Positions 2,170-62,395 of a stretch of DNA of 64,000 nucleotides are shown here, piece by piece. The notes beneath the pieces were generated by a model. That model had not been told where the DNA came from, searched no databases, and was given only the letters and a program-made list of their open reading frames with translations. A program made the position numbers and the translations under genes. The stretch is from assembly GCA_000004985.1 (NCBI GenBank), contig GG738875.1; one strand, 5' to 3'. This DNA is from Naegleria gruberi (taxonomy: Eukaryota). Each line of letters opens with the position of its first letter. Position 1 is the first letter of the stretch.

Positions 2170-2216
2170 AAGGACACTAATTTTAGAATTCAATGACGTA
2201 ACAAATAATTTAAAAA

Positions 2217-4192
2217 ATGGCAGATATTGTTCTTCCAGATACTCACTATGATGCCATCATTGTCGGAACTGGTATCGAAGAGAGTTTAATTGCTGCATCG
2301 TTGAGTAGAGCTGGAAAACGAGTACTTCACTTGGATTTAAACGATAGTTATGGTGGTCATTTTAGTACAGTGAATCCATCTGAATTAAACGAATATGTTC
2401 ATGTAAAATCTTTTGATTCTGATGTTCCGGAACCTTTTTATCAAAATCCATTCTCTCAAATTAATTTTAAAATTATTGATGATTTAAATATTTCTCTTCA
2501 AAGAAAGACAATGATTGACTTGTGTGGATTGCATGTTTTATATTGTAGAGGACCTATGGTAGAATTATTAATTCAATCTGGTATTGCTAGATATTTAGAA
2601 TTTAGATGTTTGGATTCTGTTTTAATGTTTGACAAGGAGCATTCCACTAACCCATTTAAAAATGTTGTAAAATCTGAAGATGAATTTTCACTTGTGGATG
2701 TTTCTCAATTGTTTCAAGCAGTTCCAACAACAAAGGGTGAAGTTTTTAAAACCAAGTTTATTTCTCTCAAGGAAAAGAATAGACTTGTAAAGTTTATTAA
2801 CTTTTGTGTCAATCTATCCACTCAGGAAGAAGAAATGAAAACCTATAAGGAATTTGAAAATGAATCATTTGATTTATTTTTGAGCAAGACACAACTGTTG
2901 GGAGACGAACAAAGCTTTGAAAAATTGAGAGATATTGTTGTTCATGCTTTGGCTTTATTAGATTCTCCAATTGGAATAACCACTAAACAAGTTATGAGTA
3001 GAGTACAATATTTCATTTCAAGTTTAGGTAGATTTGGAAATGGAGGAGCTTTCCTTTATCCATTATATGGACAAAGTGAGCTTGTACAAGCATTTTGTAG
3101 AGTTGGTGCCGTTTATGGTGGTGTATATGTTTTGAGAAGAGGAATTCATAGTGTAAAACTTGTTGAAAATGCTCACTATCAAGCTGAGCCTGTAAATATC
3201 GATCAAAATGAAGAGAAAAACTCAGACCCAACAGATGAAACTACCGATAGACCAGTAATTTATTCTAAAGAAAAGGTTGTGATTGAAGTTGGAAGTGGAG
3301 TTCAAACATTTACTTGTGATCATTTGGTAATGAACAGAGATTCTTGTCCAAGTGATACCAGTAGCACAGATGACGATTTACTTTTGAAGTTTGTTGTAGT
3401 TACTGAATCTCCATTGTTCAATTCAATTGCCAACACTATTGCAGTTATTCCTAGTGGTACAATTTCAATTGTTGCCTCTGATGAAACAATCGTAAAACAA
3501 CCATGTGCTATTTATTTGAATCAATTAGATTACTCAAGTTGTGTCGTTCCTAGAGGAAAGTACATGATCTCCCTTCAAACAAGAATTCCTTCAGACATTA
3601 GAAAATCCAATTCAGAGGTAGAAAGTCTTGTAATCAAAATGTTACAAACATGTGTAGACAGATTTATCAAGAACATTGAAAATGAGGAAAATATTGTATT
3701 CTCAACTTTATATAAGCAATCAATTCGTAAGGGAAGTTTTTCATTCTCTCAAGAATTGGACAGTAAGATTCATTTCTGCAATGATGCTAATCATGATGTC
3801 ATGCAATTAGAAAGTGGAATGACAGAACATGTTAAGGCTATCTTTAAGGCTATTGCAGGTGAAGATGTTGAATTCCTCGCAAAGATTCCTGATCCAAACA
3901 AGAGCGATAGAGACGAAGAAGATGAGCTCTACGATGAAACCACTAAATTGTTGGGAATTGAAAAGTCCAAAGTTGTGCAACCTCCCAACACAACAGCACA
4001 ACAATGGAGGAGCAAAATTTGGGAGGCGATAACCAACAACAAGATGAAATCAAAGATAACAATAACCCAGCAACACCTGCTGCTGATCATGAAAATGTTG
4101 CTGTTTCTGCTTCTGATGAAAATAATAATATTGAGCAAGAACAACCTCAACAACAAGACGACTCTGAAGGTACCAAAACAACAGAAAAATAA
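2217..4192 (+). CDS. Rab escort protein (Rab geranylgeranyltransferase component A, REP/CHM family) with acidic N/Q/D/E-rich C-terminal tail; frame change near 3962-4006 unresolved
   Basis: N-terminus MADIVLPDTHYDAIIVGTGIEESLIAASLSRAGKRVLHLDLNDSYGG matches the REP/GDI FAD-fold start (human REP1 [45 protein letters not shown]). The ~580-aa core has REP-type insertions, longer than GDI. Conserved frame 0 runs 2217..~3964. A low-complexity acidic tail is in frame +2 (3962..4192, stop TAA 4190-4192). Frame 0 read-through beyond 4004 gives implausible hydrophobic junk and would fuse with the next gene. Junction is either a 32-nt GT-AG intron (3965..3996) or a frameshift. Confidence 0.7.
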
Positions 4193-4238
4193 AGGAGTTT
4201 TTTCCCGCCAATTTGCCATCCAATTACGATACAAAAAA

Positions 4239-6509
4239 ATGCGAAGATCATCATCAGGGTCAAATATTGCTTCCTCATCTTATCGATCGAATACATCAAA
4301 CTCTGATAGTGATGAGGATTTAAAAAAACCAAATAACAAATTGATGAGAAATTCTATTATTCAAAGTGTAATATCTGAGGCGAGAAGTATAGTAGAGACA
4401 GAGGAAATTCTTAGGCCCTCAATAGCAAGGCCATCACGACCATATACACCTCGGGATTGTGAGAGAAGATTATTTATTGAAAATGAATACACTTCGCGGC
4501 CCACCTCAGCTGTATCAATCTCCAGCACTTTTGATTTTTCTCACCGAAATATTGGTTCATCAAGTGGTACGCGGGATGAAACAAACCCAGAAATTACCCG
4601 AGTGGGTTCTGGTAGCAGAAAGAAGGTAAGTAAACTTTATTAAGATTTATTGGATAAATGGTTGTAATAGAAACCTTCATCATCAAGCTCCAAAAGAACA
4701 GGAAGTAGTAAAAGTAGTAGAAGTGATTTGGAAAAAGAGGAAACACATATTCATGAGCAAGGAACAAGTGACAAAGTGTGGAATTCAATAGAAACAATTC
4801 TTGGCTCTTTGGAACAATGCGAAGACGAAGATGCTCTTATGGACTCCTTGGACTCGATATTATTGCTGGTTGATAAACTTAAAACAGTCCACAATCCAGT
4901 TGAAGATGAAAAGAAGATTAATTTCATTGGAAGACTGTCAAAATACATAGACATAGAAAACGGGCCTCGAGCTGTTAAATGTTGTTCTATAATTTTAAGA
5001 GTTACCACCTTTGGTTACCAGATACTACATATTTGTAAAATACTATTCAAGATTAGCAAACAAGAAAAAAATGACAAAGTATTTAAGGATGACAGTATTA
5101 TTGCACCCTTGGTTAGATTGTTAAATCAAGAATTTTCAACCGATAATTATTCCGTTTCTTGGGAGATTTTACTGTTTACAATTGGTACATTGAAAAACAT
5201 TTCATATGATAATTTCAATCAAAAACTGCTGATCAAACACAACACCATTTCACTCCTTTCTTTACTCCTTTCGTCAGCACTTAGAGAGCTGAAAACTGGA
5301 AATATGGAAAAGGTAAACAAACAAGCTCAGCTTTTAGTTCAGATTATGGCCACATTGAGAAACTTGGCCATGAAGACTGGAACTTTTAAACAATTTTTTG
5401 AGTATAATGTGATTGATAATATTCATATTTTGATGAATGCCCTAATGTCTCACTCAGAGTTTATACATAACTCTACTAGAGTTTTAAGCAAACTTTCTTT
5501 AGATGAAACGTGTACAGAAGAAATGAGAAAGATCTCAACCTTAAAATCATGTTTAATTAATGTTATGAAAGAGCACAAGAAACACAAACCAATAGTTGTG
5601 CGAGTTACCTTTATTCTAGGAAACATTACATTCCAGGATTACTCAGACCAAGAACTCTTTGATGAAAAAACAGAAATTCCTTTCTTGTTAGACCTTTTAG
5701 ATCTTTACTCAATCGAAGATGAAAGAAATACTAGTGCAGAAAATGTAAAGAAGGAAACTGAGGATTTATTGACAAAATTAATAAGGTTGATTGCAAATAT
5801 TTCGATGGATGAGCACCAAGGAAGAATAGTCGCTCAAAGTAAACAAGTAACTAGGTTGATTGAAATAATAGAAAGAAAGAAAGTTCAAGATTCTGAAGAG
5901 CTTATTTTGAATACACTAAGATGCATTACCAATCTTTCGTTTTATGCTTTTAGTGACACAGCAAGTCCTTTATATACATTCAGAGTTAAGCTTGCTTCCC
6001 TTCTTTCTCCACTTCTCTTCCATGATTTGACAGATGTTGTCTACGAAGCTACAAGAACATTCGGTAATCTTTCTCAAGACTCAAGTGTTCGGGAATACAT
6101 TACCAAATCTAGAATTGATGAAGCTTTAATAATAATGGTTGAACATGGCAATACGGATATTGTATATGCTGTTTGTGGAGTACTTGTTAATATGACTTCA
6201 GACCCAAGGGGTATTAAAGCAATCCAGGAGCATGGTGTAATTGAAAAATTACTAGACGTACTGGAGAAGTGTAATGTTTCACTAGCTTTAGTAATTTTGA
6301 AGATTATCCATAACATTTGTCTTAACAATGAGGCTTTTGGAGAAAATTCAAAAATTTACTCTGACTATGATTTGGAACATTTAGATATGTTACTAAATGA
6401 TATTCTCAACCATGAATATGATCACGAAGAAATGAACGAGCAAGAAGTATCCATGTTGAGAGATTTGTCAAGTGTTGCTCAAGAATTACAATATATTCTT
6501 TCTAAATAA
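4239..6509 (+). CDS. Armadillo (ARM)-repeat protein with Ser/Arg-rich N-terminal region; join(4239..4625,4671..6509), 45-nt intron 4626..4670
   Basis: ATG at 4239 preceded by an A-rich leader, 46 bp after the REP stop. GTAAGT donor at 4626 and TAG acceptor ending 4670; the 45-nt intron is AT-rich and has in-frame stops. Exon 2 is the ORF 4728..6509, whose listed M is TTG. Repeated ARM-like helices (…IAPLVRLLNQEF…, …LLSLLLSSALREL…, …RVLSKLSLDE…). No specific orthologue recognised. Confidence 0.6.
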
Positions 6510-6522
6510 ATTAATTCATATA

Positions 6523-7491: not shown

Positions 7492-7705
7492 TTTTTTCTT
7501 ATGGTCATGTCATCTTATGAAATTATCATCATCTTTAATCAATAATAATTCATTCACAATACTATTAGCAACAACAACAACTTGATAAGAGAACTCTCTC
7601 AATTGCCCTCTCTTTTGCGAGACAAATTTAAAAAACTTACGGTTACATTCAAGTTTTAAAAAAAAGAGAAAACACAACTATTGAGGGCAAAGATTTTTCA
7701 AACAA

Positions 7706-12326: not shown

Positions 12327-12654
12327 TTTTTTTCTTGGTATTTGTGGATTGTTGTAAAGTTTATCAAGTTAAAACCGTAAGATTTTTAAATATCAAATTT
12401 TGTATAGAAATTAGTTAATTAACATTCTTAAATTGAAAAATCTCTTTTTATCAATGTTGTAATACAGTTTGTGTTGAATAAGGTGAAGGATCACTCGCGC
12501 ATTTCCACCAACCAATTTCGAAAGGGAGGATGCTGTAGAAGCGGGTTGCTATTTTGTTCATTGCTCCGGTTTTGGTCTTTTTGATTCTTTCAACATAATG
12601 ATGAATGCTCAAAACAACAAAAGCGCCTCTCTTCAATATTATTAAAAAGAATAT

Positions 12655-19937: not shown

Positions 19938-19948
19938 ATTTTGGCGCC
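19938..19948. promoter_or_regulatory. E2F-like TTTTGGCGCC motif (inverted overlapping half-sites) 35 bp upstream of the importin-alpha-like ATG
   Basis: caTTTTGGCGCCATTTTtt. The core GGCGCC is palindromic and flanked by T-runs on both strands. Motif match only. Confidence 0.25.
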
Positions 19949-19982: not shown

Positions 19983-21386
19983 ATGCAAGACAATAATTTA
20001 TTGTTTTCTGGTAATAATTCTAGCAGAAAACATGCTTCTATTAAATCACAGAGTGAAATATCCTATTCACAGAGGAAAAATAATCGGATTGACTTGCAAA
20101 AACAAGCACATAAACAAAAGAGAAATCAATTATTGGAGCAATTAAAAAGAAGAAAGGTTTCCGACACTGTAAATGATGATGCCACCCAAGGAAGTGATTA
20201 TGTATATAATATTGGAGTATTTTGCAATGTTTTACTTTCACAAGAGTCTTCAATTCCTCAAAAAATCAATGCAATGAAACAATCGAGAATTATCTTGTCA
20301 AAATGTGATCCCGATACTTTGACAAATATTTTGGAAAAGAATGATCAATTTATTAATCTATTACATCAATATTTAACTTGTAAATATTCCGAGTTGCAGT
20401 TGGAATCTGCATGGTGCATTACAAATATAGCTGCTATGAAGGATGAAAGTGTTTCATTTTGCATTCCTACTCTGATACAATTGATTTCAAATTCATTCTT
20501 GGATGTGGTATTACAAGAACAGTGTATATGGGCTCTTGGAAATATTTCTCTGGGATTTTATAATAATACTCCTCTATCGACTGTTATTATACAGAATGGT
20601 GCTATTCAATATCTGTCTAATACTATCAGAACATGTAGAGCCAAAGAAATTCTCAAAACAACTTTATGGTGCGTATCGAATATTATTAGAAACGAGATTT
20701 TACATATGAAACACAATACACCAGAACATAATCAGCAAATATTTGGATGTCTTGGTCAACTGTATGAACCAATAATTTACCAATTACTGAAAAGAAATTT
20801 GAGTGATGATGGAAACATTTCAGATTTGTTATATGTGTTAAGCTATTTAACTGCTTATCCTCTCACTGACATGAGCAACTCTACAAATTTTGTTCAAATA
20901 TTTATCAAATATTTAACCCCACAAAAACAAGAATTTATAACACCAATTATACGGATTATTGGAAATATATTTTGCTCTTACAACTTATTTTCAGCATTGG
21001 ATCAGAACTTATCTTTAGAATTAATGAACTTGTTGTCTAACATTCCAGATAAAAACAAGGAATGGTGCTACATGATGGGAAATATATCTTCGTATGAGGA
21101 AATCAATGAGATTCTCATTCAACAATATCACCTTCTTAATATTGTAATAGATACTCTCAAAATAGCCATCAATTCTGATATTTCGAACAATAGCGAATTG
21201 GTGCGTGAGACTGTCTATACTATAATCAACCTGACAACAGCTAATCATAACAAATACCTAACTAAGGAAATATTGGAACTGATTCAACGAGTAGCTCAAA
21301 CCTATACATTTGACGAGAATGAAAATAATCAACAATTCAAAATGGTTCTTACACAATTCTTCGACTATGCTTCCAGATTACAATAA
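19983..21386 (+). CDS. Divergent importin-alpha (karyopherin-alpha)-like ARM-repeat protein with IBB-like N-terminal motif
   Basis: Basic IBB-like segment (QRKNNRIDLQKQAHKQKRNQLLEQLKRRKV). ARM repeats with the importin-alpha hallmark W-x-x-x-N motifs (ESAWCITNIAA…, CIWALGNISLG…, LWCVSNIIRNE). 467 aa, shorter than canonical importin-alpha. Confidence 0.55.
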   Translation: MQDNNLLFSGNNSSRKHASIKSQSEISYSQRKNNRIDLQKQAHKQKRNQLLEQLKRRKVSDTVNDDATQGSDYVYNIGVFCNVLLSQESSIPQKINAMKQSRIILSKCDPDTLTNILEKNDQFINLLHQYLTCKYSELQLESAWCITNIAAMKDESVSFCIPTLIQLISNSFLDVVLQEQCIWALGNISLGFYNNTPLSTVIIQNGAIQYLSNTIRTCRAKEILKTTLWCVSNIIRNEILHMKHNTPEHNQQIFGCLGQLYEPIIYQLLKRNLSDDGNISDLLYVLSYLTAYPLTDMSNSTNFVQIFIKYLTPQKQEFITPIIRIIGNIFCSYNLFSALDQNLSLELMNLLSNIPDKNKEWCYMMGNISSYEEINEILIQQYHLLNIVIDTLKIAINSDISNNSELVRETVYTIINLTTANHNKYLTKEILELIQRVAQTYTFDENENNQQFKMVLTQFFDYASRLQ

Positions 21387-21405
21387 AAAAAATGCAAACA
21401 TAAAT

Positions 21406-23304
21406 ATGGAGCAACATATTTTAATTGATGGGAAAATTAATTATGAATTGGATGAGTTGTGTTCTAACCTTGCTCTTCATCATGAACAATATAAAGAAGG
21501 AATAACAAAAATTAAGAGATGGGAGGAAGCCAAGTTTTTAAAGGATCAAGACTTTCAAGTACCAGAAAAACCTTCACTTGATGAATTAGAAAAGGAGGAA
21601 TTACGATTTGAATGTGAGAGTGATGTCCTCCCGAATTATGCTATACCATCTTCATCTTCTAGAAGAGATTTAGAAATAATTTTAAATCAAATTCTTTCGA
21701 TTATTAGATCGGATCATGAATTTAAAAAGTGGATTATTGAACAGGCACTCTCCTTCATTTCTAAAAATTTTAAATCATTATTAATTGATAATTTCCTTGA
21801 AGTAATTCAGAATTTATTTGAATTACATGTGAAAAAAACAAAACCAAATCAAGATGATGTATTTATTGAAACTAGAGTCCAAGAGAGTATTTGGAAAACA
21901 ATTTTATTTGATATGAAAGAGAATCACGCGGAGGATGGGATACTGATTGACATGTCTTTAACATTTTTATATTTGAGAACTAAAGAATATGAAAAGGCTG
22001 AAACATGTCTATTGAATATCATAATAGCATTAGAAAAATTAGAGTCTAAACTAATTCTAAATTATTTTTATTTATTATTAGGACATGTTTTGAGGATAAA
22101 CTTCAAGCTAGATTCGTGTGCTTGTTATTTTAGAAAATTAGTGAATAGTCTGCCTTTCGATAAAACAAATAATACAATACTTTATTCTGCCATTTATATG
22201 TGGTTAGGCGAGGTAATGGAATCAATGGATTTGGATGTGTGGGCTGTAGAATCATATCTTAAATGTAGCAAATATTTTTCTGATCATCCAAATATGAACC
22301 ATCCCTTTGTAACGATTTCATTTGTTTTTATCAAGTTGGCAGAGCTTTTCTTTAAGGATTATAAGGAGAATGGAAATAATATACATCTTGCAAAAATTTT
22401 CTATCACAAAGCCTTTATTGGATTTGAGAAGAATAACCTACTTCAAAATAAGACATTTATAGAACTGTCTCCATATACAATCAATTATAACAAAGCGAGT
22501 ATAGCAATACGTTTGGGTTGTATTATTTATTTGGAAAAAGATTTTGAAAAGAGTTTAGACTTTTTCCTAAAAGCTGAGGAATGCCTGCTTAAAATCAGAT
22601 TTGAGTAAGTTATTGAAATTTAACTCGATACTAATTTTGGATCTAGTCAATCTCAAAGAAAAAGTGATGGATCAGCTCTAAATATTTTACAATCTCTACA
22701 TAGAAAAATAGCAATCAATTATTGTAGATTGGGCCTTTTTCAAAATGCCTCACGATATGTCATGTATAGAATTATTGTGGATAATAGTAAGATTTCAGAC
22801 ACAACAGACTACCAGAAGCAATTAAATCTCATACTGGAAGAAAAAGAAAGAGAGAAACAGGAACGAAAAACTCATGCCAAACATGTGATAGCTCAGGAAC
22901 ATCCAATATGTTTCCTATCTCTTTCTCTTATATCATTTCACAAAAAGTCTATTATAGAATTATGTAAATACTGTGAACTAATTTTCAAAACAAGTGAACT
23001 CGACAAGGAAGTTTATCTCCCACTCCTTACCTTCCAAAAACTTGTTTCCTTATTAATCTCTTCACAGCAATTAGAACTAGCCCAAATAATCTGTTCCAAA
23101 TATCTCATCTCTGCCAAATCATACGCACTCGGATATTACATTCTCTTTCTACTTTCCATTAAAAACCAAGACAACAATTCAATCATTGGATGTTGGAAGA
23201 AGTTTAATGAAACCTATGTAAGCAACAAGCCATTTGAACCAATGAGTGTCTACTGGCCATTCATCTTGTCCTCAACTTTAAGATTTCCACTGCCAAAACT
23301 GTAA
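21406..23304 (+). CDS. TPR-like helical-repeat hypothetical protein; join(21406..22604,22647..23304), 42-nt intron
   Basis: First in-frame ATG at 21406, 19 bp after the upstream stop; the ORF track start 21310 overlaps the previous gene. GTAAGT donor at 22605 and CTAG acceptor ending 22646. Exon 2 corresponds to ORF 22729..23304, whose listed M is TTG; the frame is continuous after splicing. Confidence 0.5.
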
Positions 23305-23515: not shown

Positions 23516-25336
23516 ATGCCACAAGATAATCCTTTTGAAATTCCAGCGACATCATCGTCTGATGTTGGATTAACGAGAGACTCTACATTCATGAACCAAC
23601 AAGATCCATCACCATCAACAACAACAACAACAACAAATTTACTTTTATCCAAGACTCCATCATCTCTAAAAACTAAAAAAGTTAAATCAAGACAATTAGG
23701 TTTATCTATAACAGCACCATCTTCAGATCAATATCCAGAAGAAGATCCTGCAGGAATGGGAGATGAAATTCCATCCTTCCTACTTGATGAACAATCTGCT
23801 GCCATTGTACAACCTGGTAAAGTTATTAGTACTATCGGAACACTTCCAACATCATCTTCAAGTCCAATTCCTGTTAGACTTTTGTCTAATTTGAGTTTGA
23901 ATGACAAGAGACCTTCCTCGAGCGTTTCTTCTCCTTCATCATCTATAGCCGATAATTTTAATAATATTGCTAATAATACAACAACAAGTGTACAAGTAAC
24001 ACCACTTCGTATGTCTAGGAAAGGTACATCTGACGTAAAAAAGAAGAAAGGTCCTATGTTGAAATTGGAAGTACCAGTTAAAACAAAATTAGCAAACGAG
24101 TTTACAGTGTAAGTATATAGTTATTTCAATCAAGTTAGTTTTACATTTTTGTAATTATTATTCAGATCACATAGCGGTACCTGGAAAGCAGAGGATATTT
24201 TGATTGGAAGAGGAGGATTGATTTCTGAAAAATTGGATTCTGCAACTACAACACCAAGTTCGAGTGAAAATCTATCAGTATCAGAACTTCATAGTGCCAA
24301 TAGCAGTTCATCAATAACACCACTGTCAGGAACTAGTGAAGCCTTTTCTCCAATTGGAGAAGTGACCAGAGGTTCAAAGAAAATTGCCTACGAGGATTTG
24401 AAGATTTATAAAACAAAATTGGGAGAAGGTGCAAGTGGAAAAGTATATAGAGCACATTTGAAAAACGACAAGACTCAACAATTTGCACTCAAAGTTATTG
24501 ATATTTATGCTGAAAATGTAACACCAAAACAAATTTTATCGGAAATCAAGTCACTTTGTGACTCTGTACAGTGTGATAATATTGTTAAATTTTATGAAGC
24601 CTATCACAGAGAAGGATCTATCCGTATTTTGATGGAATATATGAATTGTGGAGCTCTTGATGACATTTATAGAACTACTGGTAGCATTCCAGAAGATGTA
24701 TTAAGTGAAATTTCTTTCCAAATTCTCAAAGCTCTCGCCTATCTAGCTGAAAAAGGTGTTATTCACAGAGATATCAAACCAGCTAATGTATTGTTAAATA
24801 AGAATGGTGTGACTAAACTCACCGATTTTGGCATGTCAAATCAAAACTTGAAATCCAAAGACTTTAAGACTTTCCAAGGAACTTTTTACTACATGTCTCC
24901 TGAGAGATTGAAGGGATTAACACATAGTGTTGACAGTGATATTTGGAGTGTTGGTGTTTTAATAGCAGAATGTGCAATAGGAGGACTTCCATTTACCAAA
25001 GGTGCTGAAGTATCAGTTTGGACATTATTGAAACACGTACAATCCAATCCAGAGGTTGTGACAATCAAACCTGGTGAGGTTTCTGATGAATTCTTTGATT
25101 TTATTCACAAATGTATGGAAGAGGAACCAATCAATAGACCTTCTGCCAAACAATTATTGAACCATCCATACATTAAAAAGTACATCAAAGATCAAGATAA
25201 TTTCAAACCAGTAAGAACTGCTAAATGGTTGAAAGAAGTTTACCTTCCAAAAAAGAAAGAGAAAGAAGAACAGAAAAACTTGGATTTCAATACCTTGTCA
25301 GACATTGTAACAAATTCTTTCCAGCTAAAGCAATAA
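23516..25336 (+). CDS. Dual-specificity MAP kinase kinase (MEK/STE7 family) with long S/T/P-rich N-terminal extension; join(23516..24108,24166..25336), 57-nt intron
   Basis: Kinase subdomains: GEGASGKVYRA (Gly loop), ALKVI (VAIK-like), HRDIKPANVLL (catalytic loop), LTDFGMS (DFG), YMSPERL (APE-like). Basic docking-site-like KKKKGPMLKLEV precedes the intron. GTAAGT donor at 24109 and TTCAG acceptor ending 24165. ORF 24200's listed M is TTG. Confidence 0.85.
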
Positions 25337-25342
25337 AACACT

Positions 25343-26512
25343 TTATTGACCTTTCTTTTCTTTGAGTGCAACACATGCCTTTGCAAACTGAACACACGTT
25401 CTTTCCATCCAAGAAGGAAGAGCTTTGTAAGGTGCCATACCATCTAACCAAGCAACGTGACCACCTCTTTTGGTTGTAGCTAAAATAGTGTTAGAATTTT
25501 TAGCAAAGTTAGAGTAAGGAATTACACCCTTACATGATATTGGATCGTCTAAAGAAGACAAGAAAAGTATAGGAACTTTAACATGAGCTACATCATCAGA
25601 GCAGCTGCATTGTTGGTAAAATCCAGATAACGAATCACCGCCAAGCAACACTTTAGAGACAGCATCATCAAATTCCATTGTTGAGCTAACTCGTTTAACT
25701 TGGTCAATTTTTACAGGAGTATTTTCATAGAGATGTTCGTGAGCAAGAATCAATTCCTTTCTCTTCTTTGTAAATACCTTGTCATAAATTAAATTATTAA
25801 TAAATTCAGTCCTGAGTCTTTCAGATGATCTTCCCAATTCGAATGGATTTGAAACTGCAATAGCAAAATCAATTGGTGTATCTGAGCCAACTTCTCCCAA
25901 ATATTTAGTCATGATATTTGAACCCAAACTAAAACCACACCCAATCATGGCCTTTGATTTTGGATATTTTGATTTGATGTGACGAAGAACTATTCCCATA
26001 TCCTCAGTTGTGAGTCCAAATATTGGTGTATTGAGACCAGTTTGGGCACCTCTGTAATTAACAACCACAGCTCTCATACAGGCATCCCTAACAGCATTTG
26101 AGACAAAATGTTTAATTTCAATTTCCTTGCTTCCACCACAAACTCCAGCAAAAACAATCATAATTGGTGATTCATCTGTAATTTCATTTTCCTTGTGTTG
26201 TTCCTCAATTGGACGATTATCATGAACCCAGTCAAGAATAATTCTTCCACCACAACTAAAAGTAAAATCTTCCGAATCATATGAAAACCAATTAATATCA
26301 GGTCTAAAAGCAACGTTGAAAATTGTTTGTAAATGTTCATTTGTTAAATAGGGTGTTGGACAAAATTCACTCCTCAAATTGTATGTATGTTTTACTAAAT
26401 ATTCAATATCCGAATTATTACTATCATAATATAATTTAACCTTTTCACAAATAAAGTACTTGTAATAGACCCAATAACACAATAGGCCAACTCCAACCCA
26501 AACCAGAAACAT
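25343..26512 (-). CDS. Alpha/beta-hydrolase, ABHD1/ABHD3 (EMB8-like) family
   Basis: N-terminal TM anchor. Conserved ABHD1/3 architecture. Nucleophile elbow GFSLG. Typical …VVNYRG… and C-terminal His region. Single exon. Confidence 0.8.
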   Translation of the reverse strand: MFLVWVGVGLLCYWVYYKYFICEKVKLYYDSNNSDIEYLVKHTYNLRSEFCPTPYLTNEHLQTIFNVAFRPDINWFSYDSEDFTFSCGGRIILDWVHDNRPIEEQHKENEITDESPIMIVFAGVCGGSKEIEIKHFVSNAVRDACMRAVVVNYRGAQTGLNTPIFGLTTEDMGIVLRHIKSKYPKSKAMIGCGFSLGSNIMTKYLGEVGSDTPIDFAIAVSNPFELGRSSERLRTEFINNLIYDKVFTKKRKELILAHEHLYENTPVKIDQVKRVSSTMEFDDAVSKVLLGGDSLSGFYQQCSCSDDVAHVKVPILFLSSLDDPISCKGVIPYSNFAKNSNTILATTKRGGHVAWLDGMAPYKALPSWMERTCVQFAKACVALKEKKGQ

Positions 26513-27501
26513 TTTTTAATTTTGTTATTTATATATTGCTGTGATAATGATGATGATGACTTGTTTTTGAAACACACAGTTTATCTTCTATGGAATGTTG
26601 AGTTAAAAAAGTTGATGTTTTTTTTGTTTTGTGGAAAATGGGTTTTCTTTCCATGAAAAGTTAGCTGTTTGAAAGTTTAAAGAACGAAATTGGCGGGTAA
26701 GGATTGAGGGGAACATGTCCGAATACAAATTCCCTTCTTTCTCATTCACCACCAGTTAATTTCCTTTCCACTTTGGCAATTAGATTATGACAACTTCTTG
26801 AGTTCTAAACTACTTATATACCATTTATTGGGTTGTCACTGTTATTCTTAAACCCTAGTTATTTGATTGTTTAACTCACGGGCTGCAAATAATGAAAGAA
26901 ATCAATTTATTGCTATTGGAATGAAGACCTCTCGTTGAGTTTTGAGATATCTTCCAATCGAAAAGACAAGCGAGTCCAACATTAGAGCAATTTATTCTAA
27001 ATTGAAAATTTCTAAAAATTGTTTCTATCCTAATTTGTATTTGCATAGAAATACTTCAAAAGAAATGCAATTTTTGATAACGACAATGTAATAATTAGCA
27101 GAGCCATTAGATAAGGTACTTTATAGAAGGGAATATTCAAACTATTCGCAGCCATTATTGAGCGGAATTAATCAGACACTGATAGAGAGTTTACAATGAT
27201 AATCCTGGTGAAGGATCGTCATCATGTGCTCCGTCCTTGCTTGTCGGAGTTGGTTCACCACCATATTAAAAAAAAATAAATTCATCCTCCAGAGAGAGAT
27301 ATTGGGAAGATACTTATTTTCTGTTGATCAAAGGTTTTTCAAAGAGGTCTTTTCAAATTTTGGATTATTTGTTATCATCATCATCATATATTAAATTTTA
27401 AAAATTGCTTTTAAAAGTTTCATAGCAATTATCAAGAGCTCCTAAAACTTACGCTATATAATTGCTACTAACGAATTAATTATTACACCAATGTGTATGA
27501 A

Positions 27502-29980: not shown

Positions 29981-31832
29981 ATGATTGCAGCATCAAACAA
30001 GCCATCATCATCTGGTGACCACCAACAAAATACAACAGTGCCAAAAGAAGATGCTGCCTTGAACACTAATAAGAAGGAAAATGTTGATCAACCATCATCG
30101 GAATCAACAAATAATGCAATTGATAAGAAATTTAGTAAAAATGTTGATGATTCTGATTCAGATCTTTCATCAGGCAGTGATAACAAGGATCCAACAACAA
30201 GATTTAATATTTTAAGGTCTACAAGTCTCAGAAAAGCCTATAAAAATTTAAAACAACAAGAAAGAGAAGAGTTTGATTTGGTTCAATCAGATGCCAGTCA
30301 ATCCGAAAGTGAAAATTATATTCCATCAAAAAAGACATATGGCAATGGTGTATCACTTTTGAAAACACCTAAAATTCCAACTACTGTTGCAACCCCTACG
30401 AAGCATAGTGAGACTGTCAGTCAAACCAATAGACTAGTTTGCATAACTAGACCTTCTATTCTGGCTAGAGACTCGGATAAACTTAATTCGTATAGAGGTT
30501 TCTTGAATTTGGCCATCATCATACTTGTTGGTATGTTTCTAATATTATTATTATATTTTGTTAAACAATTTAATAGTGAGTCACTTACGTTTAATGTTAA
30601 TTAATTTCAACAAGTATGGTATCTTGTTGAATACCCATGAATATGTAGCTGCTTTCTTGAAAGATCCATCAAATGGATGGGAAGTCATTCTCATGTTTGC
30701 ATCTTTGATTATTTGGATTGTTTTGGCTTTTGCAGTTGAAAAAGTTATTGCAATTTATATTAGAAACAAGTTCAGTCAATTGTTAACAAAGAAAGATCAT
30801 CAAGTAAGCAAGAGAAAAGCTTTATGGAGTCATATTTTGAAGAATGCAAGCTTTTTCTCATTCTGTTGTTACTTTGTGTTGGACACTACATTATTGGGAG
30901 CCACTATATCATTTGTATGGCTTTTTAATCCACATCCAGTTGCTGGTATGATGTTATTGACCTTGGGAACTATTGTATTCTTAAAGATGACATCATATGG
31001 TGTGGTAAATGACCATTTGAGAGAAAGAATGTGGGAAAGAAAGGCACAAAAATTGAAAACAATTGACACTGTTGCCACTGCTACTGGAATTTCTTGGTAC
31101 AAACAATATCCAGACAATATTTCACTCTATGATATTTTCTATTTTATGTTTACACCAACACTTGTCTATGAAGAATGCTTCCCTAGAACCAAGTCTATTA
31201 GATTCAAGGTTCTTTTATTTGATTGCTTGGAACTTTTGGCTTGCTCCTTCATTTTAATCTTCTTAGTTGAACAATACGTTATGCCTCTTGTTGAACACTC
31301 AGTTGAGCCAATGAGAGAAAAGGACATGTTACGTTTATTCGAAAGACTCCTCAAATTGACAGTTCCTAATATTGTTATTTGGATTGTTGGATTTTATATT
31401 GTTTTCCATTTAGCTTTGAATATTGTAGGTGAGATCCTATGTTTTGGAGACAGATTATTTTATCTTGATTGGTGGAATTGTACAGATCTATCCTATTTCT
31501 GGAGAACATGGAATTTACCAGTTCACAAATGGATGGTATTGCACATTTACCTTCCACTTGTAAATAATGGTGTTAGTGCATCTATTGCCAGCTTTTGTGT
31601 ATTCTTTGTGAGTGCTATATTCCATGAACTTATCATTTCAGTACCTTTCCATAAGGTTTATGGTTTGGCATTTATGGCAATGATGGTACAAATGCCATTG
31701 TCATTCGTAACAAAGAAATACTTGAGAGGAAAACAAATTGGTAATGTAGTATTTTGGATGAGTTTTATGATTGGTCATAGTAACACTCTCATTTTCATTT
31801 ACAATGATATGCACTCAGCAGCAAATAATTAA
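29981..31832 (+). CDS. DGAT1: Diacylglycerol O-acyltransferase 1 (DGAT1, MBOAT family); join(29981..30530,30577..31832), 46-nt intron
   Basis: ORF-track start 29945 is TTG; first ATG is at 29981. GTATGT donor at 30531 and AATAG acceptor ending 30576. The spliced junction gives …NSYRGFLNLAIIILVVSHLRLMLINFNKYGILLNTHEY…, aligning gap-free with human DGAT1 [35 protein letters not shown]. Downstream DGAT1/ACAT signatures: FGDRLFYLDWWNCTDLSYFWRTWNLPVHKWMVLHIY and the MBOAT His region. Confidence 0.85.
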
Positions 31833-31840
31833 AGTCTTTA

Positions 31841-32739
31841 TTAAGAAATGTTAAATAATCTTACAAATTCATCGTATGATATTAAACCATCCTTATTAGT
31901 ATCTACAAGGTTAAATAATTGTCGAATCTCGTTATCTTCCATGACAATGCCTATACCCAACTTTGATGAGACAGACTTGAATTCATTCACAGACAAGAAA
32001 CCATCCTTATTCAAGTCAAACATGTCAAACACTCCTCTCATATCCTCAGCACTTGCTTGGTCAGAAAATTGAATTGGTGTTTCATTACCTCCCTTCTTGA
32101 TTGGAGGTAGCTTATCGGAATTAAGTCGTGAACCATTTGTTGGTGATTTACTTCTTGAAATTGGTAGGGGAGATGTTGGACTTGTTGGCACAAGGTTCTT
32201 TTTTGAAGAAAATAGGCCTTTGAAGGATAAGGTGCTAGATTGTTGCGAAGAAGGTTTACTTGCAGCCTCTTCTGCAAGGGAATGTCTTCTTGAGGTTGAT
32301 GGTGGGAATTCAGGGGCAAGGGAATTTCGTTTTGTAGACAAAGGGTAGTATGATGGTGATACCACACTCTTTCTTCTTGTAGGTAAGGTTTTCATAGTAT
32401 CCATTGTTGGTGCTTTCATTATTGTACAGAATTCATCAAAAGATATTACACCCTTCTTGTGTGTTTGTATTTCAGACATGATATCATCCATATCATTCAT
32501 TGTGACTTCATGACCCAGAGCGCGTAATGTATTTAATAATTCGTCTTTTCCTATGTATCCATCTCCATCCTTATCAAAAAGACGAAATGTTTGATGAAAA
32601 AGAATCCTTTCTGTGTTGAGGAGTAGAAGCAGTTTATAAATAATCATGATCAAAAATGCTTACCCTCAGAGGAAATGTCAGAGGTTGTTAGTGAAGGTGT
32701 AATAAATCTTATTGGCGTGTTGTTAGGAGATCTTTTCAT
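31841..32739 (-). CDS. EF-hand calcium-binding protein (two EF-hand pairs separated by S/P-rich linker); complement(join(31841..32610,32664..32739)), 53-nt intron
   Basis: Exon 1 is 76 nt (MKRSPNNTPIRFITPSLTTSDISSE). GTAAGC…CAACACAG intron complement(32611..32663). Exon 2 begins in canonical EF-hand loops (FRLFDKDGDGYIGKDEL; C-terminal FDLNKDGFLSVNEF and VDTNKDGLISYDEF). Confidence 0.65.
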
Positions 32740-46454: not shown

Positions 46455-46465
46455 TTTGGCGCGCA
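46455..46465. promoter_or_regulatory. E2F-like TTTTGGCGCGC motif 63 bp upstream of the outer-arm dynein heavy chain ATG
   Basis: Sequence ctgTTTTGGCGCGCaatt matches the E2F consensus TTTSSCGC. Similar copies lie upstream of the second dynein gene (62348..62356) and the importin-alpha-like gene (19938..19948). Motif match only, no functional evidence. Confidence 0.25.
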
Positions 46466-59602: not shown

Positions 59603-62344
59603 ATGCCTATGAAAAAGACAAACCACAGGCTGAAGTGGAGTGTGGGAAAATATATTATATTCATAACAATATTAATAGTAGCTTTTTCTATTATAATATC
59701 ACATCAAGAACAAGTTAATCAAAAGAAAAAATCTAATAATCAAAATTCGGAAGAGGAAGAACCAAAGTTTATAATTTTGAAAGATGGTGATGAATCTGAG
59801 CTTGAAAACCTTCCTGAAGAGTTTAAACAAAAAATCAAGGAAGCTTTATTGAAAGTTAAGAGTAATATTAATTTTGAACAAGCTCCCCCAGAATCAAATC
59901 CTTTAAATAATAATATGCCTGATCAACAACAGACTAAAACTTCCCAAACAACCAAACCAACACCTCAAGTTGAAGAGACATTGGATACATCAATGTTAAG
60001 TGATATTTCTATTCCTTTGGATGAGATAACAATTCCAACAGAATATTCCTCAACATTGGATGAAGAGTTCACTAGAATTAAGAGAATGAAAGAATTAAAA
60101 CTTGTAACAAGAAGAAAATTCATGTCTAAAAAACTCAATGATTTGAGAAAACAACAAGAAAATGAAATTGATGGAAAGAAGGATTCTACAGAAAAATTAT
60201 TAGAAGCAAGAATGATTTTGGATCCCGATCTTCCAGAGTATGACAAAGAAGCTGTTGAAAAGGCAATTGGAATTTATCTTTCTGTTGTTAAAGAAGATCC
60301 AACAAACCCACTTGTATTGTATAATTTAGGAACAGTATATAAGGTAAGATTTTCTGAGAATATTAATGACTAATTGTTTAATTAGAGTGAAAAATTTGGT
60401 GTTAGAGACTTTTCCAAGAGTAAAATGTACTACATTTTGGCAGCTTATTTAGGTAGTCAAATGTCACAATTCGAGGTTGCTCTATTGTATAATAATAACT
60501 TGATTTCAAGCAAGGATTTAGAAAATGTGAAAAGTTTAATGATTGAGATATTTGGACCAGTTGAAACAATGAAAAAGCAAGTCAAACTAATTTATGAGAA
60601 GATTCCAAAATCTATTGAAAATCCTGAAACATTATCTTTGTTGAATCTTTTCTATAGCTCTTTAGGAGGAAATACTGGAGCAAATATTGCTTTGGGATAT
60701 AGACATATGTTCGGACATGGCGTACCAAAATCTTGTAAAACAGCTAGCTATTATTATTCGAAAGCAGCTTCTGATGTTATTGTCGAGTTTGAGGATAGCA
60801 GAATGCCTCTTATTGATCATGTAAGACTTAATGATGAGAGTGCTATTCAAAATAAGCAATCACAAGAGGATATTATGGAATATTACCAATATTCTGCTAG
60901 TAAGGGATCATCTTCATCGATGCTTATTTATGGTTATGCTAATTTATATGGTATAAGAGGTGTCGAGCAAAATGGAGAAGTTGCTAGAAGATTATTTGAA
61001 CAAGCTGCTGAGGCAGGAGAACACGAGGCTTTTGGCGCTCTTGGTAATATGTTCCTCAAGGGTGCTGAAGGTATTCCAAGAAATAATGAGACAGCTTTCA
61101 AGTACTTTAAGAAGGGAGCAGACAAAAAAGATCCATCCTCATTAAATGGGCTTGGAAAGATGTACCTTGAGGGATCAAATGATGAACAAGGAAATATCAT
61201 TCTTGAAAAGAATTTTGAATTGGCAGCTGGATATTTCAATAAGAGTGCATCATTGGGCAACTCTGAAGCTCATTATAATTTGGGTCTTTTATATTTGGAT
61301 GGTAAGGGTGTAAAGAAATCATTTAAACAAGCAATGCAACATTTTGCGATTTCAGCTCAACATGGTCAAGTTCTTGCCAAATATCAACTTGCCAATATGT
61401 ATCTTCATGGATTGGGAACTAATCCAAATTGTGAAATTGCTGTTAAATTCTTAAAATCTGTTGTTGAGAAGGCCTCATGGACTTCAGTAATGGAGAGTGC
61501 TTTTGAAAAGTTTGTATCAGGAGAGGATCAACATACTGCTCTTCTACTTTACCAACATGCTGCAGAAATGGGTATTGAAATAGCACAAGCTAACATTGCT
61601 TTCATGTATGACAGAGGATATGGATTTGAGGAAATTTCCAGTGGATTATCTGAAGAGGAAAGTGAATTGTTAAAATTCAAGGGAGCTATCAAATGGTATC
61701 AACAAGCAGCTGAACAAGGTAATGTTGATGCGTATGTCAAAGTTGGGGATTATTACTATTATGGTTCATCTGCTTTATCATCTTCAAACTCTTCTGTTGG
61801 AAGTTTAGAACAATCATACGAAAAGAGTATTTATTTCTATAGAAGAGCTAAGGAATTGAACAATGCTCAAGCAATGTTTAACTTGGGTTATATGCATGAA
61901 CATGGAAAGGGACTTCCACAAGATTTCCATTTGGCTAAAAGATATTACGACATGGCATCTGATGCTGATCCAGTAGCTTATGTTCCAGTTATTTTGGCCT
62001 TGGGTAAATTATATGGTCATTGGGGATTTTATTTAGTTAAAGATTATGTAACAAATATTTTCAATGAAATGCCAAGTAGTGAAATAGATGAAACCTCAAA
62101 CTCTGATATTTCAACTTGGTTGGTCAATCTCATAATTGAACATGAGGATTACTTTTTGGCTATTCTAATTGGTGGTCTAGCCCTACTTATTTTTGTCAGA
62201 CATGTAGTGAATAGTCAAGCTAATGCAAGACCAAGAAGACGTAGAGTAGTCACTACCACTGAAAACACTCAACAAGAAGATAACGTTAGAAACCAACAAC
62301 CAGAAGAGCAAGAAGAACACAATCAGCACGAACACCAAGAATAA
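59603..62344 (+). CDS. SEL1-repeat protein, SEL1L/Hrd3-like ERAD component with C-terminal TM anchor; join(59603..60343,60386..62344), 42-nt intron
   Basis: N-terminal signal/anchor (YIIFITILIVAFSIIIS). About 10 Sel1 repeats (…GANIALGYRHMFGHGVPKS…, …ALGNMFLKGAEGIPRN…, …GLGKMYLEGSND…, …NLGLLYLDGKGVKKS…, …LANMYLHGLGTNPN…, …NLGYMHEHGKGLPQD…). C-terminal TM (LAILIGGLALLIFV) followed by a basic/acidic tail. GTAAGA donor at 60344 and TTAATTAG acceptor ending 60385. Confidence 0.8.
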
Positions 62345-62347
62345 ATA

Positions 62348-62356
62348 TTTGGCGCC
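62348..62356. promoter_or_regulatory. E2F-like TTTGGCGCC motif in the 50-bp spacer between the SEL1L-like stop and the second dynein ATG
   Basis: atatTTGGCGCCtttttt, 40 bp upstream of ATG 62396. Motif match only. Confidence 0.25.
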
Positions 62357-62395
62357 TTTTTTAAACTACAATACAACACCACAAACGCAAAAAAA

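What the first reader, a model, noticed from the sequence alone, without database searches (positions are those of the whole stretch)
21387..21405. Same-strand neighbouring genes separated by only 19-50 bp (operon-like packing)
Stop-to-ATG spacers on the same strand: LSD1-like to REP 47 bp (2170..2216); REP to ARM-repeat gene 46 bp (4193..4238); importin-alpha-like to TPR-like gene 19 bp (21387..21405); SEL1L-like to second dynein 50 bp (62345..62395). These are too short to hold both a 3' UTR with polyadenylation signal and an independent promoter. Possible explanations are polycistronic transcription with downstream processing, extremely short UTRs with promoters embedded in the upstream coding region, or mis-assigned starts.
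Basis: seen in the sequence. Interest (0 to 1): 0.55.

Follow-up and report, generated by a model that had tools for sequence, protein, structure and literature searches.

The report
Tightly packed Naegleria genes, not operons
Neighbouring genes of the amoeba Naegleria gruberi lie only 19-51 bases apart because the signal that ends one message is built into its stop codon and the next gene's control elements sit directly behind it or inside the preceding gene; this is ordinary for this very compact genome and does not indicate bacterial-style operons.

Summary
The window is Naegleria gruberi nuclear DNA: 30 genes in 64 kb, 89% genic. The four short same-strand spacers are real: 47, 46, 19 and 51 nt. 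One caveat applies. The REP stop at 4192 is reached only through an unexplained frame change near 4000.

The spacers are the low tail of a general compaction and not a special class. Convergent neighbours are closer still, at 6, 8 and 13 bp. Strand runs are random, at 1.76 genes per run.

Three of the four upstream stop codons sit inside AATAAA. This is the "dual-use" stop/poly(A) signal that direct RNA sequencing has already shown in this species, with about 22-nt 3' UTRs. In the window such stops cluster at tight 3' ends: 7 of 10 against 2 of 19, p=0.002. Sense-strand AATAAA is about 30-fold depleted in gene bodies.

Two of the 46-51-nt spacers carry an E2F-like site (TTTCCCGCC, TTTGGCGCC) 38-48 nt before the ATG. 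Two spacers contain no AG, so they offer no trans-splice acceptor.

The best reading is separate, abutting or slightly overlapping transcription units. At the 19-nt junction the downstream promoter must lie inside the upstream coding sequence. No transcript ends could be examined here. The polycistronic reading is disfavoured but not excluded.

Side finding: the downstream TPR-like gene and REP returned no N. gruberi protein from the database.

The parts
19983..21386 (+). Upstream gene of the focal junction: importin-alpha-like ARM-repeat protein, 467 aa, single exon
   Evidence: 100% identical to NCBI EFC43107.1/XP_002675851.1, NAEGRDRAFT_68846. Pfam Arm. C-terminus conserved in orthologues.
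21382..21387 (+). AATAAA overlapping stop codon TAA 21384-21386 (dual-use stop/poly(A) signal)
   Evidence: The class is described for N. gruberi in PMC11529991.
21387..21405 (+). 19-nt spacer AAAAAATGCAAACATAAAT. It has no AG dinucleotide. It contains an out-of-frame mini-uORF, ATG CAA ACA TAA (21392-21403).
   Evidence: No significant RNA structure (z = -0.73).
21406..23304 (+). Downstream gene: TPR-like protein, 618 aa, exons 21406-22604 and 22647-23304, intron 22605-22646 (GTAAGT..TAG, 42 nt). No N. gruberi protein was returned from the database.
   Evidence: Orthologues in N. lovaniensis (52% id) and Willaertia magna (39%). Intron. No N. gruberi hit. Flanking accessions EFC43107 and EFC43108 are consecutive.
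2170..2216 (+). 47-nt spacer between the LSD1-like amine oxidase (stop TAG 2167-2169) and REP (ATG 2217). It has no AATAAA. It has the variant AATAAT at 2204-2209 and a bZIP/CRE-like TGACGTAA at 2194-2201, which also reads as the mini-uORF ATG ACG TAA.
4188..4193 (+). AATAAA overlapping the TAA (4190-4192) that ends the acidic C-terminal tail assigned to REP (frame 2)
   Evidence: The frame problem is shown.
4193..4238 (+). 46-nt spacer between REP and the ARM(ARMC5-like) gene. It holds a T-run followed by the E2F-like TTTCCCGCC at 4201-4209, 38 nt before ATG 4239.
   Evidence: A CCCGC core is also present in the 67-nt REP-to-ARM spacer of relative L007.
62340..62345 (+). AATAAA overlapping stop TAA 62342-62344 of the SEL1L-like gene (exons 59603-60343 and 60386-62344)
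62345..62395 (+). 51-nt spacer before the inner-arm I1/f-alpha-type dynein heavy chain gene (ATG 62396). It holds the E2F-like TTTGGCGCC at 62348-62356 followed by TTTTTT, and has no AG dinucleotide.
25332..25347 (.). Comparator: back-to-back dual-use stops of a convergent pair (MAPKK gene, +, and a hydrolase-like gene, -) only 6 bp apart: AATAAAacacTTTATT
19940..19948 (+). E2F-like TTTGGCGCC 43 nt upstream of ATG 19983 of the importin-alpha-like gene. This shows the motif class in an ordinary 373-bp divergent promoter region.
   Evidence: GC-rich cores at similar positions upstream of orthologues in L001 and L003.

Best explanation
These are separate, monocistronic RNA polymerase II genes of a very compact genome, packed head-to-tail so that the 3' end of one unit abuts or overlaps the 5' control region of the next.

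Step 1 (the sequence is shown here; the function is shown elsewhere for the species). The upstream gene's poly(A) signal AATAAA is built into its stop codon. No spacer is therefore needed for it. Cleavage is expected about 20 nt downstream.

Step 2 (inferred). In the 46-51-nt junctions the remaining roughly 25-30 nt, plus the 3' UTR itself, carry the downstream gene's proximal promoter. This is an E2F-like site 38-48 nt before the ATG, flanked by a T-run that could also serve as the U-rich downstream element of the poly(A) site. It is followed by a very short A-rich 5' leader.

Step 3 (logical necessity if transcription is independent). At the 19-nt junction the downstream promoter lies inside the last codons of the importin-alpha-like CDS. 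The upstream mRNA probably ends at or just past the downstream ATG, so the two mRNAs overlap by a few to about 25 nt.
For: - Organism: N. gruberi.
- Published direct RNA-seq of this species (PMC11529991): AAUAAA is the poly(A) signal and the median 3' UTR is 39 nt. About 11-13% of stop codons overlap AAUAAA, and those have a 22-nt median 3' UTR.
- In the window, AATAAA overlaps 9 of 29 stops. That is 7 of 10 where the next gene is 51 bp away or less, against 2 of 19 elsewhere (Fisher p=0.002). It includes 3 of the 4 flagged junctions.
- Sense-strand AATAAA occurs 3 times in 56.6 kb of gene bodies, against about 90 expected and 89 for antisense TTTATT. The hexamer is therefore strongly avoided in messages, which suggests it acts wherever it is transcribed.
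- Spacers by class: convergent median 70 bp (minimum 6), tandem 188 bp, divergent 396 bp. This roughly fits one 3' flank plus one 5' flank.
- 17 strand runs for 30 genes.
- TTTSSCGC occurs 6 times against 0.92 expected, with 0 of 100 shuffles reaching that. Four copies lie within 70 nt upstream of ATGs (P=6e-5), and two of those are in the flagged spacers.
- GC-rich cores recur upstream of orthologues.
- There is no AG in two spacers.
- Neighbours of both focal genes differ in N. lovaniensis, N. fowleri and Willaertia.
- Heterolobosea show no polycistron signature.
Against: - No transcript 5' or 3' ends for these loci could be examined. The supplement of PMC11529991 is not held, and the N. gruberi contig is not in the locus index.
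- The 47-nt LSD1-like-to-REP spacer has no AATAAA at or after the stop.
- The 19-nt spacer has no recognisable promoter motif, and any upstream TSS would put several ATGs in the leader.
- The E2F-like assignment is by sequence only, from one 64-kb window. It does not survive Bonferroni correction in the blind k-mer scan (CGCCAA p=7e-5, uncorrected).
- The X-to-REP-to-ARM order with 43- and 67-bp spacers is conserved in one relative (L007). This is also what an operon would predict.
- Dual-use stops were not enriched at tight ends in the few relatives' loci checked.
- The gene models are my own curation.
Confidence: 0.8

Rival explanations
1. Polycistronic transcription. Each tight pair is transcribed from the upstream gene's promoter as one precursor. 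The downstream mRNA is made by processing, through spliced-leader trans-splicing or cleavage coupled to upstream polyadenylation.
For: - The spacers are as short as intercistronic gaps of known eukaryotic operons.
- Naegleria belongs to Discoba, whose euglenozoan branch is polycistronic.
- REP-to-ARM adjacency with short spacers is kept in relative L007.
- The 19-nt spacer shows no promoter motif.
Against: - There is no AG dinucleotide, hence no 3' splice acceptor, in the 19-nt and 51-nt spacers.
- Strand runs average 1.76 genes in the window and about 2 in Heterolobosea, with no long runs and equal inter- and intra-run spacers.
- E2F-like promoter-type sites sit in two spacers.
- Convergent pairs, which cannot be operons, are packed tighter still (6-13 bp).
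- The focal adjacency is not conserved.
- REP has other neighbours in L008 and Willaertia.
- The paired genes have no obvious functional relation.
- From my own knowledge, no spliced leader has been reported for Heterolobosea.
Confidence: 0.05
2. Gene-model artefact. The spacers look short because starts or stops are mis-assigned. The true starts would lie downstream, there would be unrecognised introns or upstream exons, or a sequencing frameshift would be involved.
For: - The REP stop at 4192 needs an unexplained frame change.
- The TPR-like ORF is open upstream to 21295, with in-frame ATGs at 21319 and 21367.
- The dynein N-terminus is about 190 aa shorter than I1-alpha/DNAH10 homologues with solved structures.
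- REP and the TPR-like gene returned no N. gruberi protein from the database.
Against: - Conserved protein sequence begins 3 residues after ATG 21406, so the start cannot lie downstream. Upstream starts would only make the genes overlap.
- ATGs 2217 and 62396 are each the first ATG after an in-frame stop.
- The REP N-terminus is identical in position in L007 and Willaertia.
- A 4445-aa dynein homologue starts only 17 residues earlier.
- The ARM orthologue in L007 starts at an equivalent position.
- The frame-2 REP tail resembles orthologue tails. L007 has a clean REP stop 67 nt before the ARM gene, in a different frame.
Confidence: 0.07
3. Read-through bicistronic mRNA at the 19-nt junction only. 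The TPR-like ORF would be translated from an importin-like/TPR-like dicistronic message by reinitiation.
For: - The 19-nt gap is too short for a conventional promoter.
- No promoter motif is seen.
- The gene was missed by annotation, which fits weak independent expression.
Against: - A canonical AATAAA sits at the stop codon. The hexamer is about 30-fold depleted in messages, which suggests efficient cleavage before the second ORF.
- From general knowledge of eukaryotic translation, reinitiation after a 467-codon ORF is very inefficient.
- The orthologue in N. lovaniensis is expressed from a 219-bp divergent promoter region.
Confidence: 0.05

Closest known systems
Dual-use stop codon / poly(A) signal in compact protist genomes (Giardia, Spironucleus, and N. 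gruberi itself; PMC11529991)
   Same: AATAAA overlaps the stop within the -2..+5 window used in that paper at 3 of the 4 junctions. The organism and the hexamer are the same. The expected consequence is an ultrashort (about 22 nt) 3' UTR.
   Different: That study did not relate dual-use stops to the distance or orientation of the next gene. Here they cluster at 3' ends with a neighbour within 51 bp. No RNA 3'-end data for these loci were available to me. The downstream gene of the focal pair is unannotated, so it could not have been counted as a neighbour.
[quoted passage not shown] 2005 PNAS as cited in PMC3629993)
   Same: Intergenic spacers are shorter than the UTRs. Transcripts must therefore start in the upstream gene and/or end in the downstream gene. 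The genes remain individually promoted.
   Different: Naegleria is free-living with a 41-Mb genome (size from my own knowledge), not a reduced parasite or endosymbiont. Overlap here is inferred from sequence geometry, not observed. Microsporidian multigene transcripts are not shown here.
SL trans-spliced operons (C. elegans, Oikopleura, kinetoplastids)
   Same: Same-strand genes lie tens of nucleotides apart. The upstream poly(A) signal is close to the downstream start.
   Different: There is no acceptor AG in two spacers, no long same-strand runs and no known spliced leader in the lineage. Promoter-type motifs are present between the genes.
E2F-site-rich proximal promoters of the compact Cryptosporidium parvum genome and of plants (PMC3734150)
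   Same: The sequences are the same (TTTCCCGCC, TTTGGCGCC) and lie close upstream of start codons in short intergenic regions.
   Different: Binding and function are untested in Naegleria. Here two copies lie inside the predicted 3' UTR of the preceding gene. The genes carrying them include two axonemal dynein heavy chains rather than cell-cycle genes.

Membership tests
Eukaryotic operon resolved by SL trans-splicing | Genes arranged in same-strand runs longer than expected from random orientation | tested here: not met
   17 runs for 30 genes = 1.76 genes per run. Heterolobosea have about 2 per run and no heavy tail.
Eukaryotic operon resolved by SL trans-splicing | A 3' splice acceptor (AG after a pyrimidine tract) between the cistrons | tested here: not met
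   No AG at all in 21387-21405 or 62345-62395. In 4193-4238 the only AGs are the first 5 nt after the stop. One plausible acceptor (ttttAG, 2185-2186) lies in 2170-2216.
Eukaryotic operon resolved by SL trans-splicing | Spliced-leader RNA and a common leader on mRNAs | not testable with these tools
   No transcript data. The Rfam scan of the window found nothing, but an SL gene would lie elsewhere.
Eukaryotic operon resolved by SL trans-splicing | Gene adjacency conserved among relatives | tested here: inconclusive
   The importin-like/TPR-like pair is not kept in N. lovaniensis, N. fowleri or Willaertia. REP-to-ARM is kept in L007 but not in L008 or Willaertia. Overall N. gruberi synteny with these species is low.
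Dual-use stop codon / poly(A) signal | AAUAAA overlapping the stop codon (window -2 to +5) | tested here: met
   Present at 4188-4193, 21382-21387 and 62340-62345. Not present at 2167-2169.
Dual-use stop codon / poly(A) signal | The hexamer behaves as a real signal: it is avoided inside messages | tested here: met
   3 sense-strand AATAAA in 56.6 kb of gene bodies against about 90 expected; 89 on the antisense strand.
Dual-use stop codon / poly(A) signal | Cleavage about 10-25 nt after the hexamer, giving an ultrashort 3' UTR | not testable with these tools
   Known genome-wide (22-nt median). No per-gene data are held.
Overlapping transcription units of compacted genomes | A spacer shorter than the combined UTRs, so transcripts must enter a neighbouring gene | tested here: met
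   The 19-nt spacer is shorter than the 22-nt median dual-use 3' UTR. Convergent spacers of 6, 8 and 13 bp are shorter than two 3' UTRs.
Overlapping transcription units of compacted genomes | Mapped transcript ends inside neighbouring genes | not testable with these tools
   No RNA data for the loci.
E2F/DP-responsive promoter element | Match to TTTSSCGC, over-represented and positioned close upstream of genes | tested here: met
   6 against 0.92 expected. 4 of 6 lie within 70 nt upstream of ATGs (P=6e-5).
E2F/DP-responsive promoter element | Bound by E2F/DP and required for transcription | not testable with these tools
   E2F/DP are reported in Excavata. There are no binding or reporter data.

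The most novel reading that the evidence does not exclude
At the tightest junctions the downstream gene has no promoter of its own. Polymerase that has transcribed the upstream gene carries on. Cleavage at the stop-codon poly(A) signal then both finishes the upstream mRNA and creates the 5' end of the downstream mRNA, which is capped or otherwise made translatable afterwards. This would be a leaderless way of resolving a dicistronic precursor, in a sister lineage of the polycistronic Euglenozoa.

A milder version is also possible. The stop-AATAAA / T-run / E2F-like block may be one dual-purpose element of about 25 nt that serves termination of one gene and initiation of the next.
Probability: 0.06. 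Interest if true: 0.8.

Novelty: new member of a known kind. Interest (0 to 1): 0.25.

Why it matters
The value is mainly practical. The four junctions are clear, coordinate-level examples of how a free-living eukaryote fits about 89% genic sequence into a region.
- Poly(A) signals are embedded in stop codons.
- 3' UTRs double as the neighbour's promoter region.
- Convergent genes sit stop-to-stop.

The analysis suggests two testable regularities that I did not find in the papers I read. First, dual-use stops are concentrated where the next gene is within about 50 bp. Second, there may be a minimal tandem junction of about 46-51 bp. It also flags two real genes (the TPR-like gene and REP) that returned no N. 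gruberi protein from the database. Gene finders may be missing tightly packed genes.

It does not change the view that heterolobosean genes are individually transcribed.

Tried and rejected
- Looked up the N. gruberi contig for transcripts or annotation around the locus. It is not on record.
- Looked for per-gene 3'-UTR tables in PMC11529991. No supplement is held.
- The Fritz-Laylin 2010 genome paper is not held.
- Literature searches for Naegleria promoters, TSSs or a spliced leader gave nothing specific.
- ATG depletion upstream of start codons, as a proxy for 5' UTR length, showed only weak, non-significant depletion to about -80.
- Dual-use stops at tight 3' ends in N. lovaniensis and Willaertia loci were not enriched in a very small sample (1 of 7 against 1 of 13).
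- RNA folding of the focal junction showed no structure.
- Rfam and tRNA scans of the window found nothing.
- The REP-ARM fusion reading (one ORF in frame 0) was rejected. The frame-0 linker looks non-coding, the frame-2 tail resembles orthologue tails, and L007 has separate genes in different frames.
- An exact-match look-up of my spliced models confirmed only the MAPKK and importin-like models. The other models differ from, or are missing in, the reference set.
- A blind k-mer scan of 5' flanks was dominated by A-runs. CGCCAA was the best non-A-rich word, but it is not significant after multiple-test correction.

Full report
**What the window is.** The 467-aa ORF at 19983-21386 is 100% identical to a predicted protein of Naegleria gruberi: EFC43107.1/XP_002675851.1, NAEGRDRAFT_68846. 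The window has 30-37% GC. It has long intron-free ORFs, including a 4500-aa dynein heavy chain, and short canonical introns of 38-74 nt, GTAAGT/GTATGT..YAG. I curated 30 gene models from ORFs, intron joins, Pfam and orthologue alignments. ATG-to-stop spans cover 88.8% of the window.

**Checking the observation.** All four stop and ATG pairs exist at the stated coordinates.

*LSD1-like to REP.* TAG is at 2167-2169 and the ATG at 2217, giving 47 nt. A TAA at 2211-2213 lies in frame one codon before the ATG. The REP N-terminus (MADIVLP.THYD) starts at the same residue in two relatives.

*SEL1L-like to dynein.* TAA is at 62342-62344 and the ATG at 62396, giving 51 nt, not 50. The ATG is the first after that in-frame stop. 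The product carries DHC_N1 and is closest to I1/f-alpha (DNAH10-type) dyneins. Its N-terminus is about 190 residues shorter than homologues with solved structures. A 4445-aa homologue in the representative library starts only 17 residues earlier, so the start is credible.

*Importin-alpha-like to TPR-like.* TAA is at 21384-21386 and the ATG at 21406, giving 19 nt. The downstream ORF is open back to 21295, with in-frame ATGs at 21319 and 21367. Conservation with the N. lovaniensis and Willaertia orthologues begins at HILxDGK, three residues after ATG 21406, and the upstream extension is unconserved. The overlapped DNA encodes the conserved C-terminus of the importin-like protein in its own frame. 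No later start is possible, so the gap is 19 nt or the genes overlap.

*REP to ARM gene.* TAA is at 4190-4192 and the ATG at 4239, giving 46 nt. That TAA is in frame 2, whereas the GDI domain of REP is in frame 0. Frame 0 runs without a stop into the ARM ATG, which is in the same frame. No canonical intron explains the shift near 3995-4005. The frame-2 tail is acidic and polar like orthologue tails, and the frame-0 continuation looks non-coding. Relative L007 has a clean REP stop 67 nt before its ARM gene, in another frame. I therefore accept 4192 as the likely stop, with a probable 1-nt assembly error or mutation. This junction is conditional.

**Are the short spacers special?** Spacers by class are as follows.
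- Same-strand: 19, 46, 47, 51, 97, 127, 188, 211, 242, 259, 273, 384, 719. Median 188.
- Convergent: 6, 8, 13, 67, 72, 105, 135, 276. Median 70.
- Divergent: 214-989. Median 396.

Half a convergent spacer plus half a divergent spacer gives 233, close to the tandem median. On average a tandem spacer therefore looks like one 3' flank plus one 5' flank. The four flagged spacers are the low tail. Three of them fall within 46-51 nt, which may be a practical minimum.

The tightest packing is between convergent genes, which cannot be operons. Strand runs number 17 for 30 genes (1.76 per run), the value expected for random orientation. This matches a 59-species Discoba survey, which found about 2 genes per run, no long runs and equal inter- and intra-run spacers in Heterolobosea.

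**The 3' side.** Direct RNA sequencing of N. gruberi established four points (PMC11529991).
- AAUAAA is the poly(A) signal.
- The median 3' UTR is 39 nt.
- About 11-13% of stop codons overlap AAUAAA ("dual-use" stops).
- Those genes have a 22-nt median 3' UTR.

Three of the four flagged upstream genes end in exactly this way: AATAAA at 4188-4193, 21382-21387 and 62340-62345. In the window 9 of 29 stops are dual-use. That is 7 of 10 where the next gene lies within 51 bp, against 2 of 19 elsewhere (Fisher one-sided p=0.002). One convergent pair shows the palindrome AATAAAacacTTTATT (25332-25347), two dual-use stops 6 bp apart.

Sense-strand AATAAA occurs only 3 times in 56.6 kb of gene bodies. 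About 90 are expected from composition, and the antisense TTTATT occurs 89 times. Such avoidance suggests the hexamer is acted on wherever it is transcribed. That argues that transcripts reading through these three stops are cut shortly afterwards.

Taking 22 nt, the predicted cleavage positions are about 4214, 21408 and 62366. That leaves about 24 and 29 nt before ATGs 4239 and 62396, and it coincides with ATG 21406-21408. The LSD1-like gene has no AATAAA, only AATAAT at 2204-2209. Its mRNA probably ends within the first codons of REP.

**The 5' side.** Start codons are preceded by A-rich sequence; position -3 is A in 24 of 29 genes.

TTTSSCGC, the E2F/DP consensus, occurs 6 times in the window against 0.92 expected. 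None of 100 shuffles reached 6. Four copies lie 38-70 nt upstream of ATGs (binomial P=6e-5):
- the ARM gene, TTTCCCGCC at 4201-4209;
- the importin-like gene, at 19940-19948;
- the outer-arm gamma-type dynein gene, at 46455-46462 on the opposite strand;
- the I1-alpha-type dynein gene, TTTGGCGCC at 62348-62356.

Two of these lie in flagged spacers, 5-10 nt after the preceding stop, and so inside the predicted 3' UTR of the upstream gene. Each adjoins a T-run that could double as the U-rich downstream element reported for N. gruberi poly(A) sites.

GC-rich cores recur at similar positions upstream of orthologues: GCGCC in N. lovaniensis, GGCGCG in a metagenomic relative with a 63-bp tandem spacer, and CCCGC upstream of the L007 ARM gene. 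The same words mark proximal promoters in plants and in the compact Cryptosporidium genome. E2F/DP factors are reported in Excavata. Function in Naegleria is untested.

The LSD1-like-to-REP spacer carries a CRE/bZIP-like TGACGTAA (2194-2201). The 19-nt spacer has no recognisable element. N. lovaniensis has a 64-bp divergent spacer upstream of its importin-like gene. Promoters in this genus can therefore be very small, or can reach into neighbouring genes.

**Against processing of polycistrons.**
- The 19-nt and 51-nt spacers contain no AG, so no 3' splice acceptor can lie between the cistrons.
- The window holds no Rfam family or tRNA.
- The focal junction has no significant RNA structure (z=-0.73).
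- The paired genes have unrelated predicted functions.
- Neighbours of the importin-like and TPR-like genes differ in N. lovaniensis, N. fowleri, Willaertia and a metagenomic relative.

A counterpoint is that contig L007, about 54% identical, keeps X-to-REP-to-ARM in tandem with 43- and 67-bp spacers. L008 and Willaertia do not. From general knowledge of gene-order evolution, tightly packed neighbours are expected to stay together longer simply because breakpoints between them are harmful. N. gruberi synteny with its sequenced congeners is low overall. Conservation evidence is therefore weak in both directions.

**Conclusion.** These are independent genes whose 3'-end signal is embedded in the stop codon. 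The downstream neighbour's promoter overlaps the 3' UTR in the 46-51-nt junctions, or the last codons of the upstream CDS in the 19-nt junction. The result is abutting or slightly overlapping mRNAs.

This matches compaction devices already described for N. gruberi (dual-use stops) and for other compact eukaryotes (overlapping transcription in microsporidia). What is shown here is the sequence geometry, the motif statistics and the species-level RNA biology from the literature. Actual transcript ends at these loci, E2F binding and promoter activity are inferred.

I put 0.8 on independent compact units, about 0.05 on polycistronic processing, and about 0.07 on gene-model artefacts explaining the pattern.

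**Side findings.**
- The TPR-like gene (21406-23304, 618 aa, one intron) has clear orthologues, but no N. gruberi protein was returned. The flanking genes carry consecutive accessions.
- REP likewise returned no N. gruberi protein.

Noticed in passing
window 21406-23304 (+): An intact, conserved 618-aa TPR-like gene with one 42-nt intron appears to be missing from the N. gruberi reference proteome. No N. gruberi hit was returned, and the flanking genes carry consecutive accessions EFC43107 and EFC43108.
   Followed up: partly
window 3950-4240 (+): The REP (Rab escort protein) gene needs a -1/+2 frame change near 3995-4005 to reach its acidic tail and the TAA at 4192, and no canonical intron explains it. 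In the GDI frame the ORF runs without a stop into the ARM gene's ATG 4239, which is in the same frame. No N. gruberi REP protein was returned. Likely an assembly indel or a real frameshift.
   Followed up: partly
window 4201-4209, 19940-19948, 46455-46462, 62348-62356: The E2F-like TTTSSCGC(C) lies 38-70 nt upstream of two axonemal dynein heavy chain genes (outer-arm gamma type and I1/f-alpha type) and two ARM-repeat genes. This may be a shared control element of flagellar or differentiation genes. Related GC cores occur upstream of orthologues in L001, L003 and L007.
   Followed up: partly
whole window, gene bodies: Sense-strand AATAAA is about 30-fold depleted in genes (3 against about 90 expected), while antisense TTTATT is frequent (89 against about 55 expected). 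The three exceptions all lie 105-147 nt after the assigned ATGs at 12655 (+), 19609 (-) and 55210 (+). This could mean mis-set starts or tolerated promoter-proximal sites.
   Followed up: no
window 25332-25347; also 31828-31842 and 6505-6522: Convergent gene pairs lie stop-to-stop at 6, 8 and 13 bp. The first is a palindrome, AATAAAacacTTTATT, of two dual-use stops. Each mRNA's 3' UTR must therefore be antisense to the other gene's last codons.
   Followed up: partly
window 62396-64000 (+): The I1/f-alpha-type dynein heavy chain begins about 190 residues later than Chlamydomonas, human and trypanosomatid homologues with solved structures. The upstream space is fully occupied by the SEL1L-like CDS. 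One 4445-aa homologue has a similarly short N-terminus.
   Followed up: partly
window 2193-2201 and 21392-21403: Two of the tight spacers contain mini-uORFs that end just before the main ATG: ATG ACG TAA and ATG CAA ACA TAA. They would be translated only if the TSS lies further upstream, so they constrain 5' UTR length or imply reinitiation.
   Followed up: no
window ~7636-7641, ~12376-12381 (-), ~27448-27453: A CTTACG(G) word lies 54-70 nt upstream of three unrelated genes' ATGs. It may be another proximal promoter motif.
   Followed up: no
L001 5937-6000 (N. lovaniensis); L008 2553-2556: Relatives show equally extreme packing. One has a 64-bp divergent spacer that must hold two promoters. 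Another has a REP gene whose stop overlaps a convergent gene call by 4 nt.
   Followed up: no
L007 1-5322 (Logan SRR29240419): An unidentified heterolobosean relative (REP 54% identical) keeps the tandem order X-to-REP-to-ARM, with 43- and 67-bp spacers, a dual-use AATAAA stop on the first gene, and the ARM intron at the same position.
   Followed up: partly
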